DNA from: Eledone cirrhosa
Taxonomy: Eukaryota
Direction: 5' to 3'
DNA length: 64,000 nucleotides
Assembly (NCBI GenBank): GCA_964016885.1
Contig: OZ024741.1
Coordinates: 212,164,001 to 212,228,000 of the forward strand
In this document: positions 3,145 to 8,497 of the stretch, piece by piece
Layout of the letters: each line of letters starts with the position of its first letter
Numbering within the stretch: the stretch's first letter is position 1
Translations under genes and position numbers: made by a program
The notes under the pieces: generated by a model
Database searches by the model: none
Told to the model about the DNA's origin: nothing
Seen by the model: only the letters and a program-made list of their open reading frames with translations

Positions 3145-3625
3145 CGTGCATATTATTTTATTCTTTGGGATGACCTCCCCTTTCCGCTTGATGGCAGTGT
3201 GATATTTCTCATTGTGTGACTGCTGGAATTTCAAATTTGTCGGTCATTCTTGCACGGAGGGGTACCATCTCGGAACATTAATATCGGTAAGGTTTTTTTT
3301 TATATCGATATTTGACAGGCATCCACTGATGATTTATAAGAGCACACCTACATATCTTCCTACGGACTATGTGTAGGCTTCTACATAACCTGGACATTAT
3401 TTTCCCAATTTGTAGAAAACTTATAATGAAACGATCGTTTGGAAAGAGAGATGTATTTTAATTATGTCTCATATCAAATAATACAACTGGTTATCCAAAA
3501 AATACGTATAGTTAGCACCCCAAACGTATAATTGGGATTATACTAAGGTATATCCTAATGTTTGTTGAGTGAGACGGAAGCCGGTCGTAGTATTGCTTAA
3601 AGCTGTCTCTGTTAATGTATTAAAT
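3145..3625 (+). mobile_element. ~480 bp element (family E) between (TA)n tracts
   Basis: Collinear with 8020-8497 (GATGACCTCCCTTT ... CCTAATGTTTGTTGAGTGAGA). Confidence 0.8.
3322..3443 (+). ncRNA. Hammerhead ribozyme with 95-nt expanded stem II
   Basis: TCCA-CTGATGA-[TTATAAG...CTTATAA enclosing two hairpins]-GAAA-CGATCG-TT-TGGA. Confidence 0.75.
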
Positions 3626-3833
3626 ATATATATATATATATATATATATATATATATATATATATATATATATATATATATATATATATATATAGAGAGA
3701 GAGAGAGAGAGAGAGAGAGAGATATATAGGACACGAATGGAGCTGTGGTTACTGTAAACAAAGTTTAATATATAGATATATATGTACATATATAAATCTA
3801 TCTATCGATAAAGATAAATATATATATATATAT

Positions 3834-4172
3834 ATGTAGATAAATCTACCAAAAGTTTACGGTAGTGTCCAATCCGTATGAAGAACTCAATGTAATCCGG
3901 ATATCATGGAAAGAAGAGATGCATTCAAAAATCACTTTCGGTGAAAGATAAACGGAATACAGAGTCAAGATAAAATATAAAAAAAATAATGAATAAAACA
4001 AAGAAACAGTTCCTTATATTAAACAAAAAAAGTTCATTATTTAACGATCGTTTCTAGGACATATATGTGTTAGAATTGGCATGCATATTCAAAAGATCTA
4101 TGTACAAAATTATACAAACTATCAAGGAGAATATACATACCATCACATATATATGCTGTCTTCAGAAATAAT
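3834..4172 (-). mobile_element. Family F element fragment in (TA)n, containing a long-stem-II HHR (4033-4172)
   Basis: Near-identical to 52484-52821. Minus strand ATTATTT-CTGAAGA...GAAA-CGATCG-TT-AAATAAT. Confidence 0.8.
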
Positions 4173-4712
4173 CATATATATATATATATATATATATATA
4201 TATATATATATATATATATATATATATATATACATACATCTATATATATATATACATCTATATATTTGTATGTACATACTGAGAGCTATTAACAGAAAAA
4301 GAGTACCACACATATATATATACAAACACACACATAAGTCCATGGCAATATACAGGATTCGATTATATAAACTGATAATTAAATAAAATGGAAGGAAGAT
4401 TCTCCAGTCCTATATCGGATGACTGTTAAGTAAAATTCTCGAGAGAATGAGTTAAAATGGCGCTGTGTTGCAACCATAAATTTGTCTAAGTGAAGAATAT
4501 ATATAAAATAAATAAGTAAATAAATAAATATAGAAAATTATATAAGAAATAAACAAATAATAAAATGTCATGATAGAAGAGAACAAATTGTTACATATAT
4601 ATATATATATATATATATATATATATATATATATGTCGTATATATATATATATATATATATATATATATATATATATATATATATATATATATATATAAT
4701 ATATATATATAT

Positions 4713-5228
4713 ATTTCGTTTCTGAATTTGTTTAGCAAGATTCTATAGCTGAACATATGTGTTGAAACCGATATTGTTATGCTTTGGGAAGGTCATGTTG
4801 CCAATAAGAAACACACGCACCAGTTGCTTTCACTCAAATTTATTATAAAATATATTTATATATTTAAGAATTTATAAATTTCCGGTTGGTTGGTTCCACA
4901 ACCGGACGGTTGTTCATATATTGTCAAGGTTCTTTCGTCACACATTCTGTGACCTCTTCAGTAACTGGAGATTCTTTCCTTTGTTTTGTTTTGTTTTGTT
5001 TTGCACAAAAACAAAGAAAAGAATCCCTAGTCACTGAAGAGGTCACATAATATGTGATGAAAGAACTTTGACAATATATGACCAACCGTCCGGTTGCGGA
5101 ACCAATCAACCAACCGGAAATTTATAAATTCTTAAATTTATAAATTTAATTTATAATAAATTGGAGTGTAACAACTGGTGCGTGTGTTTCTTATTGGCAA
5201 CATGACCCTCCAAAAGCATAACAATATA
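4713..5228. mobile_element. Head-to-head inverted pLTR pair (family A-related), ~225 bp arms, one HHR-like motif per arm
   Basis: 4771-4990 is the reverse complement of about 5005-5228. Plus-arm HHR GTCA-CTGAAGA-..TCACATA/TATGTGA..-GAAA-GAAC-TT-TGAC at 5030-5072. Confidence 0.85.
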
Positions 5229-5291
5229 TATATATATATGTATATATATATATATATATACGCACATACGTATACATGCATATATATATAT

Positions 5292-5647
5292 CAAGCTGTG
5301 CTTGAAGCGAACTCTTATTTCTTTTCTATTATAAGTTGAGCTAACTTATGCAGCTTCGTATGCAAATGAGATTAATCACCTCATTTACACAGAAGAGATA
5401 ACTATATATTCTCGGCTGTCTTCCAGTCCAGCACTCGCAATCGGTGGGAGGGATCGGCCTGACGAAGGCCAGTTAAGCCTGAAATGCATAGACGGCTGTC
5501 TCCCTTGCTTCTGCTGGACATCACCAGAGCCCCCCCCCCCCCGGTGTTTGCATAGCTAGGGCTTCCTAAAACCGTATTCCATTGGAGATACGAAATTTAT
5601 ATACATATTGTATAAAGCTATGCTTGAAGCGAAATCTTATTTCTTTT
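5292..5647 (+). mobile_element. Family B unit (~322 bp monomer plus short direct repeat) in (TA)n
   Basis: AAGCT(G/A)TGCTTGAAGCGAA(C/A)TCTTATTTCTTTT at 5293 and 5615. Confidence 0.8.
5453..5495 (+). ncRNA. Minimal hammerhead ribozyme, intact core
   Basis: TCGGC-CTGACGA-AGGC cagttaa GCCT-GAAA-TGCA-TA-GACGG. Confidence 0.8.
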
Positions 5648-5671
5648 ATATATATGTATATATATATATAT

Positions 5672-6394
5672 ATATCACAGGTATATATTAAGTTAGGAAC
5701 TCAAAATAGTCTCTTTCAACAAAATAGCTCTAAGAAAGAGATATTTCAGAGCCGTATATTATAATAGAATATAAAAGAAAAACGAACACAGATATATACA
5801 TATATGTGTTCAAATCGTTACGATTTGAATACATATATGTATATATCTGTGTTCGTTTTTCTTTTATATTGTATTATAATATACGGCTCTGAAATATCTC
5901 TTTCTTAGAGCTATTTTGGTGTAAAAGACTATTTTGAGTTCCTAACTCAATATATACCTGTGATATATTCGGCTCCGTTAATTTGTTGAGCTATTTAAAA
6001 TGTCGAATAAACCTCCTGTCTGCTATTTTTAGTGTAAGTTTGTGAGATGCGCTATGATGTCATGTGCGCTAAAATGTTTATATATAACACACTATTCAGT
6101 TTCATAATATACTTAGAATTGTCTAGGATACTAATTCATCACACACTGATGAGCTTGAATTGGTAATTCTATTCACAATTAACTTTGCGAAACAACAACA
6201 AGTTGTCTGGGTGATGGGTAGTTACCACAATTCCGGATTGTATTTATTTTCTTAATTCTTTCTTAAATTGAAACAAGCAAACCCTATCGTCTATAGTTAG
6301 TATTCTTTTCACCTTAGCGAATACAGTCCCTTACGATTTGAACACTTATATGTATATATCTGTGTTCGTTTTTCTTTTATATTCTATTATAATA
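5672..6394 (+). mobile_element. ~513 bp HHR unit (family G) with 3' partial tandem repeat and ~145 bp 5' inverted copy
   Basis: Palindrome centred at about 5819 (5672-5967); TTACGATTTGAA..TGTGTTCGTTTTTCTTTTATATT at 5818 and 6331. Confidence 0.85.
6137..6216 (+). ncRNA. Hammerhead ribozyme (type I)
   Basis: CATCACACA-CTGATGA-GC...GC-GAAA-CAAC aacaa GTTG-TC-TGGGTGATG (8/9 stem I, GUC site). Confidence 0.85.
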
Positions 6395-6721
6395 TATATA
6401 TATATATATATATATATATATATATATATATATATATATATATATATATATATATATATATATATATATATACACTTTTGTAAAAGATACGTGGAAATTT
6501 CCAAGAGTAAGTGCAGTCAGTCCATAGGACGAGTTTGTTATAAATAATTACAACAGTGACATAAACAGGTACTCAAGTTTCATTTTTTGATGATAGCTGG
6601 GCGTATCTAATCCATAAAGGTTGTTGGTTTCATCAGATAGAACGAAATTTGTGTACATGTTCATGTCACTGTTGTAATTATTAATATATATATATTATAT
6701 ATATATATATATTTTTTTTTT

Positions 6722-7835
6722 TTAACTTTGATTTTGTACCTAATTGTGTGTGGTTAACTATATGTCTAGTCAATTTCTACGGGCTATCAGAAATACTAGG
6801 TAAATCTTCTGTGGCTGTGGATCGCAGATAAAAAGCTATCATTTATTTATCTATTATTTCTTCATAGGTACATTTTAAACTCATAACCTCGATTTAATGA
6901 TTTTTGATGTGGTTGATTATGCTGATTGGGAGAAGAAATACTGTATATATTTTATCAAATCATTCTATGGACTTACTTTCTTATATATTGCTCTGATTGT
7001 TAATTATTTAATTAATTAATTCGTCATTGAGCCACACCATGAATGGTTGCCAAAAACATATATATATATATATATATATATATATATATATATATATATA
7101 TATATATATATATATATATGGCTCTGTCTAGTTTATGTGTATGTAAACTTCTAAATTTTATATACTCCCGTAAGGTTGAGTAAAACTTTAGGCAGTATTC
7201 GGCTGCTCTTTCTAACAACCAGCCTACTCGCCGTCAGGCACCAATCACAAGCTTTCTGACTTGACCATTGGCCATGTGACAATTCTTAGCCATTTTGAAT
7301 TCGTTTCTGGCGGGGATCATTTAAGAAAAATCTTTGTCCAATTGAGTTTGTCTCCTGATGATTTCGAAACTCATTGATTTATCCATGATCGGATATTTCC
7401 AAAAAGCGAATGAAATCTCCGGGGGTAGAGATATGAGTTTAGTATTTTTATGTACATTCTTTCTTCTAACTTTGATTTAGTACCTAATTATGTATGGTTA
7501 ACTATATCTCTAGTCAATTTCTACAGGCTATTAGAAATACTAGGTAAATCTTCTGTGGCTGTGGATCGCGGATAAAAAAGCTATCATTTATTTATCAATT
7601 ATTTCTTCATAGGTACATTTTAAACTTATAGCCTCGTTTTAATGATTTTTTTATGTAGTTGATTATGCTGATTGGGAGAATAAATACTGTATAGATTTTA
7701 TCAAATGATTCTATTGACTTCCTTTCTTATATATTGCTCTGATTGTTAATTATTTAATTAATTAATTCGTCATTGAGCCACACCATGAATGGTTGCCAAA
7801 AACACATATATATATATGACTCTGTCTAGTTTATG
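6722..7835 (+). repeat. 1.5-mer direct repeat, period ~746 bp (pLTR/retrozyme-like)
   Basis: 6722-7135 is repeated at 7468-7835. The spacer contains CTGATGA-TTTC-GAAAC at 7355. Confidence 0.8.
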
Positions 7836-8019
7836 GGGTAACAAAATATCGTTATAATAAATCCCCTTTTTTGTACTGTTGACCATGTTATTCTCCACTT
7901 TTTCAATTATTTTTCAATTATAAATATATATACATATGTTGCGTATACATATGGTTATTCTTTTAATATCCAATTGAGTTCTTATACACGTGGTTAATAC
8001 GGTTTAAATGACCAGCGTG

Positions 8020-8497
8020 TATATTGTTTTATTTTAAGATGACCTCCCTTTACCCTTTTGGGTACAGCGTGTATTTTATCTTTGGGAGGACTGCCGGATT
8101 TTCTAATCTACCAGTCTCTTCTTAGCGCTGAGGGAGACCATCACCATTCTGTTAATGTTGATATAATTCTTATATCGATATTATTTGGGCATCCACTGAG
8201 ATGTTTATAAGAGCCCGCTTGTGTATAAAACTATGGATTATATACAAGTTTCTACATAACCTGGAAATTATTTATCCCAAATTGTAGAAAACTTATAACG
8301 AAACGGCCGTCTGGAAGGAAAGAGATATTTATTTAATAATGTCTCACATAAAATAATACAACCAGCTATCCACGAAATACTGATTAGTTAGCACCCCAAA
8401 CACTAAATTGGGATAATACTTAGGTATATCCTAATGTTTGTTGAGTGAGATGGAGTTGGTCGGAGTATCGCTTAAGGCTTTCTCTGTTTATGTATTG
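8020..8497 (+). mobile_element. Family E copy with degenerate long-stem-II HHR (8192-8315)
   Basis: TCCA-CTGAGATG-TTTATAAG...CTTATAAC-GAAA-CGGCCG-TC-TGGA. Confidence 0.75.

What the first reader, a model, noticed from the sequence alone, without database searches (positions are those of the whole stretch)
3322..8315. Family E HHR with ~95-105 nt branched stem II and compensatory palindromic stem III
Seen: two diverged copies (3322-3443 and 8192-8315) retain stem I TCCA/TGGA, the stem II base TTATAAG/CTTATAA and the TCTACA/TGTAGA hairpin. Stem III changes from CGATCG to CGGCCG and stays palindromic, which is covariation. Inference: a structured domain is grafted into stem II, which standard short-stem descriptors would miss.
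Basis: partly seen in the sequence, partly recalled or inferred. Interest (0 to 1): 0.75.

Follow-up and report, generated by a model that had tools for sequence, protein, structure and literature searches.

The report
Branched-arm hammerhead in a Penelope parasite
This is a hammerhead (predicted self-cutting) RNA motif with an unusually large, two-hairpin side arm, carried by a protein-free jumping repeat with about 2,500 copies in this animal genome; many copies begin exactly at the predicted cut, which suggests that the ribozyme likely does cut in the cell.

Summary
Confirmed and extended. Both copies are 5'-truncated members of a non-coding repeat (unit 697-1009 nt, 2,501 exact pattern matches, fixed 3' end in (TA)n). 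It has the anatomy of a non-autonomous Penelope-like element (animal retrozyme). The type I hammerhead has a 95-98 nt stem II region: an 8-bp helix opening into a three-way junction with two hairpins. Across 32 sequences of many subfamilies, 14 of 41 pairs show two-sided changes. The inserted hairpins stay paired more than a tree-based null allows (0-11 of 1000), but most compensations are single events. Stem III takes six forms, all self-complementary, as in dimer-acting Penelope hammerheads. The core is intact in 90 of 100 unselected copies. Window copy 2 has a private core lesion and is probably dead. Of 92 truncated copies, 12 start exactly at the predicted cut, though many others read through it. 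Rfam and the published descriptor miss the motif. 'Grafted' is not shown: stem II lengths in this genome run from 11 to 116 nt. No autonomous partner was found and no RNA data were listed. This scan noted similar long-armed hammerheads earlier on other DNA. Verdict: new variant of a known kind.

The parts
3144..3623 (+). 5'-truncated copy of the non-autonomous element, subfamily 1 (stem III CGAUCG), between (TA)n runs
3318..3321 (+). 5' flank motif (family GGGC, here mutated) able to pair with the junction GCCC: candidate pseudoknot or early off-state hairpin
   Evidence: no two-sided change
3322..3443 (+). type I hammerhead, copy 1: stem I 3322-3325/3440-3443, core CUGAUGA 3326-3332 and GAAA 3428-3431, U10.1-U11.1 opposition (the subfamily state), triplet GUU, predicted cut between 3439 and 3440
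3334..3426 (+). stem II helix (3334-3340 with 3420-3426) opening into a three-way junction
3347..3377 (+). inserted hairpin A: shape kept, sequence variable
3379..3417 (+). inserted hairpin B: basal helix conserved in sequence, internal loop, 3-bp apical helix
3431..3438 (+). self-complementary stem III (8 nt): predicted to pair with a second ribozyme copy, not with itself
3440..3623 (+). conserved tail of about 185 nt from the predicted cut to the fixed 3' end (inferred start of reverse transcription)
7938..8497 (+). 5'-truncated copy, subfamily 2 (stem III CGGCCG); 5' boundary approximate
8192..8315 (+). type I hammerhead, copy 2: private core lesion at 8200-8203, hairpin A 8218-8248, hairpin B 8250-8289, triplet GUC, predicted cut between 8311 and 8312; probably inactive

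Best explanation
The two motifs are type I hammerheads with a branched stem II, lying in truncated copies of an abundant protein-free repeat that is likely copied by the enzyme of a Penelope-like retrotransposon, and the ribozyme likely cuts the element's RNA by pairing with a second copy through its self-complementary stem III. Shown: core, stems, the branched arm and its compensatory changes, head-to-tail units of 697-1009 nt without a long ORF, a fixed 3' end about 185 nt past the cut site, (TA)n targets, variable 5' ends. Inferred: a transcript running through tandem copies brings two hammerheads together, and cutting at GUH/UGG gives the RNA a defined 5' end. A PLE protein (Hydra clade is the best candidate) nicks (TA)n DNA and starts reverse transcription inside the RNA at the fixed end. 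Most copies stop early, some run off the cut 5' end, and many pass an uncut or religated (circular) ribozyme, so cutting is partial. The arm is likely a folding and docking domain. Hairpin A is kept in shape only. Hairpin B's basal helix is kept in sequence, as a contact site for the PLE protein or for RNA would be. A conserved GGGC/GCCC pairing may clamp stems I and II together, or hold the core off until the distant 3' arm of stem II has been made.
For: Copy number and control: 1,964 and 368 exact matches, 2,501 with the 5' core left free, 0 for each reversed pattern. Core: 90 of the 100 listed copies keep CUGANGA when it is not asked for; position 7 takes all four bases; the cleavage base is U, C or A and never G in 32 of 32 aligned sequences. 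Covariation: 93.7% of cells paired, 14 of 41 pairs and 84 cells with two-sided change, against 30 +/- 4 shuffled and at most 20 when slid. On a tree built from the tail only, 5 of 20 variable structure pairs against 26 of 3,985 other column pairs pass a strict compensation filter (p = 3e-7). Hairpins A+B are 94.5% paired against 85.0% or 88.6% simulated (0 and 11 of 1000). Stem III: CG, CGAUCG, CGGCCG, CAAUUG, CGAGUCG and CGAGACGUCCG all form self-dimers (-1.7 to -14.7 kcal/mol) and none forms a hairpin alone. Element anatomy. 5' ends: 12 of 92 loci start exactly at UGG (7 free of microhomology doubt), and no other position from -17 to +4 has more than 5 (my tally). 19 of 20 distinct loci end at or after the site. 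16 of 58 tandem-junction copies end at 0 to +25 against 3 at -27 to -2. Literature: dimer action of PLE hammerheads (PMC4209133); internal RT start, AT-rich targets and a protein-assisted hammerhead in the anole PLE (PMC11167929); retrozymes as non-autonomous PLEs (bioRxiv 10.64898/2026.07.22.740005).
Against: No cleavage assay and no RNA data. 35 of 58 tandem-junction copies run past the upstream cut site, so cutting is at most partial or is followed by religation. The excess of ends just downstream of the site is partly explained by TA/AG microhomology, or by RT stalling at the fold. Using only the 7 unambiguous ends, the pile-up is modest (p about 0.005-0.03). Most compensations are single events on the tree. 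Stems I, II and III taken alone do not beat the tree null (48-299 of 1000), and hairpin A alone does not under strong transition bias (63 of 1000). In many subfamilies the predicted ensemble of the isolated motif favours an alternative fold over stems I and II. No autonomous element sharing this hammerhead or tail was found. In the anole PLE, cleavage was dispensable in vitro and no reads ended at the site (PMC11167929). Eight of nine Xenopus retrozyme dimers did not cleave in vitro (bioRxiv 10.64898/2026.07.22.740005).
Confidence: 0.6

Rival explanations
1. Tolerated passenger: the ribozyme works as above, but the arm has no role of its own. Stem II grew by insertion, and lineages survived only when the extra sequence folded out of the way.
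For: Stem II lengths run 11-116 nt across unrelated families in this genome. Hairpin A changes as fast as loops (2.75 against 2.0-3.0 changes per column). Large inserts in loops 1 and 3 are tolerated in natural hammerheads (PMC2950038).
Against: Hairpin B's basal helix changes slowly (0.57 per column) and mostly without needing compensation, i.e. it is conserved in sequence. The arm length stays within about 93-98 nt across all aligned subfamilies, while the element body diverges and varies by 300 nt.
Confidence: 0.27
2. The hammerhead no longer cuts. Its fold is kept as a protein-binding or RT-stop structure, and the 5' ends at the site mark a transcription start or an RT stall.
For: Most long copies read through the site. 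U-U or A-U replaces G10.1-C11.1 in most subfamilies. PLE minimal hammerheads cut poorly in vitro (PMC4209133).
Against: The catalytic bases are kept while N7 and the cleavage base vary exactly as the NUH rule allows. The commonest end is the scissile bond itself, 4 nt inside stem I. U10.1-U11.1 occurs in natural hammerheads (PMC3088659) and in Hydra-clade PLEs (PMC8557442 File S2).
Confidence: 0.1
3. No RNA-level selection: the copies look alike only by descent, and the paired changes are chance in an AT-rich repeat.
For: Copy 2 alone folds no better than shuffles. Single pairs rest on single events.
Against: Aggregate tests; six different self-complementary stem III forms; a compensated stem I (U-A in 21, C-G in 11 of 32).
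Confidence: 0.03

Closest known systems
PLE-associated minimal type I hammerheads (Cervera and de la Pena 2014, PMC4209133; parts 1-2 of 4 and passages of one supplement read)
   Same: CUGANGA/GAAA core, 4-bp stem I, 7-8-bp stem II, palindromic stem III that needs a dimer, position near the element end; one subfamily has the exact minimal CG form.
   Different: Loop 2 is replaced by a three-way junction of about 80 nt (the descriptor allows 3-10 nt); G10.1-C11.1 is the minority state; the host element has no ORF.
Animal non-LTR retrozymes (Cervera and de la Pena 2020, PMC7229834, parts 1-2 of 6; Li et al. 2026, bioRxiv 10.64898/2026.07.22.740005, parts 1-3 of 5)
   Same: Non-coding, low-GC (31-35%) head-to-tail units, each with a type I hammerhead; mostly dispersed monomers; inferred PLE dependence.
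   Different: Units of 697-1009 nt are at or just above the top of the reported range (170-400 nt; 51-972 bp). The hammerhead is PLE-type, not canonical with loop-loop contacts. Circular RNA is not shown here.
Hydra-clade C-terminal EN+ PLEs (Craig et al. 2021, PMC8557442; passages, supplement parts 2 and 24 and searches)
   Same: (TA)n targets, hammerhead about 100-180 nt from the 3' end, frequent U-U at the base of stem II, palindromic (often odd-length) stem III. Elements with Hydra-like endonuclease motifs (compared by eye) are abundant and young in this genome.
   Different: Listed Hydra hammerheads have loops of 3-10 nt. The longest loop 2 in File S2 is 35 nt (PLE-X1_sMoe). The one Hydra-like family examined has a 36-nt stem II and no detectable homology to this element.
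Anole Poseidon element PAc (Frangieh et al. 2024, PMC11167929; parts 1-2 of 4)
   Same: Fixed 3' ends downstream of the hammerhead, AT-rich targets, partial tandems.
   Different: Autonomous, short stem II; no RNA ends at its cut site were seen, whereas genomic ends pile up at the site here.
Discontinuous CLEC2 hammerheads (as reviewed in PMC2950038; passages)
   Same: Natural hammerheads that carry large inserts and escape short descriptors.
   Different: The search there allowed inserts in loop 1 or 3, and the ribozymes lie in mRNA 3' UTRs; here the insert is in stem II, branched, and in a retroelement.

Membership tests
Type I hammerhead ribozyme | CUGANGA and GAAA core boxes | tested here: met
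   90 of 100 copies intact when the 5' box is unconstrained; GAAA in 32 of 32 aligned (partly selected on it). Not met in window copy 2.
Type I hammerhead ribozyme | NUH cleavage triplet and A15.1-U16.1 | tested here: met
   GUU, GUC or GUA, never G at position 17, in 32 of 32; A-U pair in 32 of 32
Type I hammerhead ribozyme | three helices around the core, open at stem I | tested here: met
   stem I U-A/C-G compensation, stem II 91% paired, stem III as dimer
Type I hammerhead ribozyme | self-cleavage at the predicted bond | not testable with these tools
   indirect only: genomic 5' ends at the bond
Type I hammerhead ribozyme | match to an Rfam hammerhead model | tested here: not met
   no hammerhead hit at gathering level or E<=10; expected for an 80-nt insert
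PLE minimal hammerhead (Cervera 2014) | palindromic short stem III | tested here: met
   six self-complementary forms
PLE minimal hammerhead (Cervera 2014) | helix II of 7-8 bp, helix I of 4-5 bp | tested here: met
PLE minimal hammerhead (Cervera 2014) | loop 2 of 3-10 nt | tested here: not met
   about 80 nt, branched against the descriptor
PLE minimal hammerhead (Cervera 2014) | G10.1-C11.1 pair | tested here: inconclusive
   G-C in 7 of 32 (3 of them with a bulged U), A-U 7, G-U 3, U-U 13, A-C 2
Non-LTR retrozyme / non-autonomous PLE | head-to-tail units each with a hammerhead | tested here: met
   14 hammerhead-to-hammerhead units of 697-1009 nt; arrays of 3-5 units
Non-LTR retrozyme / non-autonomous PLE | no coding capacity | tested here: met
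   longest ATG ORF 29-92 aa in 14 of 14 units
Non-LTR retrozyme / non-autonomous PLE | fixed 3' end, variable 5' truncation, partial tandems, microsatellite targets | tested here: met
   65 of 81 5' boundaries at a microsatellite
Non-LTR retrozyme / non-autonomous PLE | terminal homology to an autonomous PLE | tested here: inconclusive
   none in the loci searched; only one autonomous family was examined in depth
Non-LTR retrozyme / non-autonomous PLE | expressed as linear and circular RNA | not testable with these tools
   no RNA run was available to lay

The most novel reading that the evidence does not exclude
A distinct hammerhead subclass in which stem II carries a functional three-way-junction domain. 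Hairpin B docks the PLE protein, and a GGGC/GCCC helix switches the RNA from an early off fold to a pseudoknotted on fold, so cutting is coupled to protein binding. The genomic 5' ends are a fossil record showing that PLE-type dimeric hammerheads cut in vivo.
Probability: 0.25. Interest if true: 0.75.

Novelty: new variant of a known kind. Interest (0 to 1): 0.5.

Why it matters
[quoted passage not shown] Here the commonest 5' end among copies truncated near the ribozyme is the scissile bond itself, which is genome-scale, if indirect, evidence of cutting. The family also supplies a natural mutational series (six stem III forms, compensated hairpins) for testing dimer action and protein assistance. 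It shows that short-loop descriptors and Rfam miss thousands of hammerheads per genome, so published counts, and statements that some PLE clades lack hammerheads, may need rechecking with long stem II allowed.

Tried and rejected
Rfam: nothing at gathering level; at E<=10 only AT-hairpin noise and no hammerhead family. ORF on either strand of the element: an apparent antisense reading frame was checked and rejected. A 4.6-kb spacing between two hammerheads was a local duplication, not an autonomous element. Autonomous partner: not found among endonuclease ORFs in fetched loci. The octopus Naiad consensus marked HHR_half_core in PMC8557442 shares none of four family motifs. An active Hydra-like family has a different hammerhead and gives no profile hit at E<=0.5. 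The covariance model R1 found only the two window copies in 464 kb of window plus sampled genome, so it did not reach distant relatives. GGGC/GCCC pseudoknot: 92.9% paired but no two-sided change, so unproven. A hairpin across the tail-head junction had weak, inconsistent support. The 'HHR fold' energies used incomplete constraints and were not used. Sequence look-up of earlier scan notes gave nothing. Three relevant papers were not held (Lunse et al. 2017, Arkhipova et al. 2017, Hammann et al. 2012), and opened an unrelated paper.
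Full report
1. Observation. The window is AT-rich, microsatellite-laden animal DNA from a 3.0-Gb assembly. The two surrounding regions align over about 480 nt, so the ribozyme is part of a larger repeat. Copy 1 folds into a stem II helix that opens into two hairpins (z = -3.02, 0 of 200 shuffles). Copy 2 keeps the hairpins but not the overall fold (z = -0.97, 34 of 200). Rfam has no hammerhead hit, either at gathering level over the window or at E<=10 over 3000-9600.

2. The family. BLAST searches of the own genome gave 1,621 and 2,152 first-look candidates (30 loci fetched from each). Exact patterns give 1,964 matches for the group with stem I TCCA, 368 for the CCCA group and 2,501 when the 5' core box is left free. 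Each pattern read backwards gives 0. Of the 29 closest relatives of copy 2, 27 have CTGATGA, so its CTGAGATG is a private lesion. All 29 closest relatives of copy 1 share its U-U at the base of stem II; that state is known in natural hammerheads (PMC3088659, passages) and common in Hydra-clade PLEs (PMC8557442 File S2). In the 100 listed matches the core was unconstrained. By my count 90 are intact, the other ten carry scattered changes (11 in 600 sites), and position 7 is T, A, C or G (66, 26, 7, 1).

3. Element anatomy. Copies end at a fixed point about 185 nt after the predicted cut, run into (TA)n, and have variable 5' ends. In 81 copies, 65 5' boundaries lie at a microsatellite. The longest copies are a tail plus a whole unit, or arrays of up to about five units. 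Fourteen hammerhead-to-hammerhead units measure 697-1009 nt, have 31-35% GC and no ATG ORF above 92 aa. The hammerhead region and tail are more conserved between subfamilies (0.76-0.93 majority fraction) than the body (0.58-0.79); the body figure is biased low because some rows include unrelated flank. This is the partial-tandem, fixed-end, (TA)n-targeted layout of Penelope-like elements (PMC8557442; PMC11167929) without a protein. It matches what Li et al. 2026 call a non-LTR retrozyme, i.e. a non-autonomous PLE (consensus 51-972 bp).

4. Structure. I aligned 32 natural sequences: 30 subfamily representatives chosen from 212 distinct full-length copies, plus the two window copies. RNAalifold recovers stem II and both hairpins. 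For the named structure of 41 pairs, 93.7% of cells pair; 14 pairs and 84 cells change on both sides, against 10.6 and 30 in shuffles and at most 4 and 20 when slid. Examples: stem I U-A 21 / C-G 11; top of stem II A-U 14 / U-A 9; hairpin A U-A 18 / C-G 12; hairpin B apical A-U 22 / U-A 9; stem III G-C 22 / A-U 8. Because relatedness inflates such counts, I built a tree from the tail only. Most compensations map to one branch each, so single pairs would probably not pass R-scape. In aggregate, 5 of 20 structure pairs with both columns variable pass a strict filter, against 26 of 3,985 other column pairs (p = 3e-7). In simulations on the tree (L156 dropped for a truncated tail), hairpins A+B are 94.5% paired against 85.0 +/- 2.9% (0 of 1000) or, with strong transition bias, 88.6 +/- 2.7% (11 of 1000). 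Stems I, II and III alone are not significant (48-299 of 1000) because they hardly vary, and hairpin A alone is borderline (3 and 63 of 1000). Changes per column: core 0.18 (partly selected by my patterns), stem II 0.36, hairpin B basal helix 0.57, hairpin A 2.75, loops 2.0-3.0; N7 changes 4 times and the cleavage base 5 times, never to G.

5. Stem III. Six forms occur: CG, CGAUCG, CGGCCG, CAAUUG, CGAGUCG and CGAGACGUCCG. With the flanking A and U each forms a self-dimer (-1.7 to -14.7 kcal/mol) and none forms a hairpin alone; three single copies with private changes dimerise less well. This is the dimer design of PLE hammerheads (PMC4209133; PMC6765202). A four-base GGGC just 5' of stem I can pair with GCCC at the junction (92.9% paired, no two-sided change). 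It is predicted to form an early hairpin over the core in 14 of 15 sequences folded (the exception is window copy 1, where both sides are mutated). It could equally be a stem I-II pseudoknot of the kind common in hammerheads (PMC3088659). In many subfamilies the isolated motif's ensemble favours this alternative over stems I and II. This counts against spontaneous activity and fits a need for refolding help, as shown for the anole PLE (PMC11167929).

6. Does it cut? If some templates begin at the cut, reverse transcripts should stop there. Among 58 distinct copies spanning a tail-head junction, 16 begin at 0 to +25 and 3 at -27 to -2; three begin exactly at 0; but 35 run further upstream (two rows of the same arrays dropped). 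Among 20 distinct loci listed, 19 begin at or after the site. One search lists all 100 matches (92 loci) where a TA run is followed by the tail. By my tally 12 begin exactly at UGG, and 4-5 more within one base or after another flank. The next most frequent positions are -5/-6 (5, with AT microhomology) and +2 (4); positions -10 to -17 have 1-2 each. Five of the 12 belong, or may belong, to subfamilies with triplet GUA, where the junction could lie two bases upstream; for the 7 unambiguous ones p is about 0.005-0.03 against comparable positions. The pattern favours positions that begin with T, which is why I compare with those. RT stalling or a transcription start at this base cannot be excluded, but the scissile bond lies 4 nt inside stem I, not at its edge. 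I read this as partial cleavage in vivo, with read-through from uncut or religated templates.

7. Context. A relaxed scan of 464 kb (window plus 40 sampled 10-kb stretches) found 39 hammerhead-like motifs and 0 in the reversed control, and 360 against 0 in 795 kb of selected loci. Stem II regions cluster at 11-17, 22-38, 45-63, 82, 95-97 and 103-116 nt; a few hits above 120 nt look like chance. Long arms are therefore common here, and this family is near the top; 'grafting' is not shown. The partner was not identified. Hydra-clade elements are the best candidates on target and hammerhead style (lead taken from earlier scan notes), and a young family with an 821-aa ORF and Hydra-like motifs exists, but its hammerhead and ends do not match this element's profile.

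8. Novelty. Seven library searches showed no natural hammerhead with a branched stem II of this size. The longest loop 2 in the table I read is 35 nt, the published descriptor stops at 10 nt, and large inserts were sought in loops 1 and 3 (PMC2950038). Lunse 2017, Arkhipova 2017, Hammann 2012, one supplement file of PMC4209133 and the bioRxiv supplements were not seen and may bear on this. Engineered ribozymes with aptamers in stem II are well known (recalled, no call). Ribozyme class and element class are known; the branched, covarying arm is a new variant, and the 5'-end pile-up is useful indirect evidence on an open question. Earlier unreviewed notes of this scan describe the same or similar motifs elsewhere in this and other genomes; I use them as leads only. 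Papers seen: PMC4209133 parts 1-2 of 4 plus supplement passages; PMC11167929 parts 1-2 of 4; PMC7229834 parts 1-2 of 6; bioRxiv 10.64898/2026.07.22.740005 parts 1-3 of 5; PMC8557442 passages and supplement parts 2 and 24 with searches; PMC3088659, PMC6765202, PMC7761336, PMC10085705, PMC8490949 and PMC2950038 passages only.

9. Verdict. Observation confirmed; interpretation partly supported; new variant of a known kind; interest 0.5.

Noticed in passing
window 4039-4169 (-), 52688-52818 (-), 55717-55847 (+); L079, L099, L194: A second hammerhead family with a 103-116-nt stem II that looks rod-shaped rather than branched (core CUGAAGA, stem III CGAUCG); no obvious homology to the finding by eye.
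   Followed up: partly
window 6700-7800 (+), hammerhead 7351-7431: Another tail-plus-unit repeat with a 50-nt stem II hammerhead; a 59-nt relative lies in L090. Probably a further non-autonomous family.
   Followed up: no
window about 6140-6215 (+): Hammerhead with a stem II of about 40 nt and a true 4-bp stem III hairpin, so possibly active as a monomer (seen by eye).
   Followed up: no
window 9115-9372, 4700-5230, 5716-5921: Head-to-head inverted stubs of PLE ends forming long DNA palindromes.
   Followed up: no
L271-L300 (own genome): A very young PLE family with Hydra-like endonuclease motifs: 149 of 150 scored matches are 100% identical over 142 aa, ORF 821 aa, 3' UTR about 1.3 kb, 36-nt stem II hammerhead, two alternative 3' ends. 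Its hammerhead is the one at window 9310-9372.
   Followed up: partly
L233:4880-4965: Hydra-like element whose hammerhead appears to have the U3-A8 core variant and a stem II of about 50 nt (by eye).
   Followed up: no
tail-head junction of the family (e.g. L063:1546-1674): Conserved GAGUA before and UACUC just after the fixed 3' end; UACUC also follows the first 3' end of the Hydra-like family. Possible RT-start signal; fold support was weak.
   Followed up: partly
L123/L124: Two family copies in head-to-head inverted arrangement, as is typical of PLE insertions.
   Followed up: no
L140, L145, L164: Subfamily with units of about 1,000 nt, made longer by an internal duplication in the body.
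   Followed up: partly
window 20276-22862 and 25144-25633: Minisatellites of 32 nt x 81 and 47 nt x 10.
   Followed up: no
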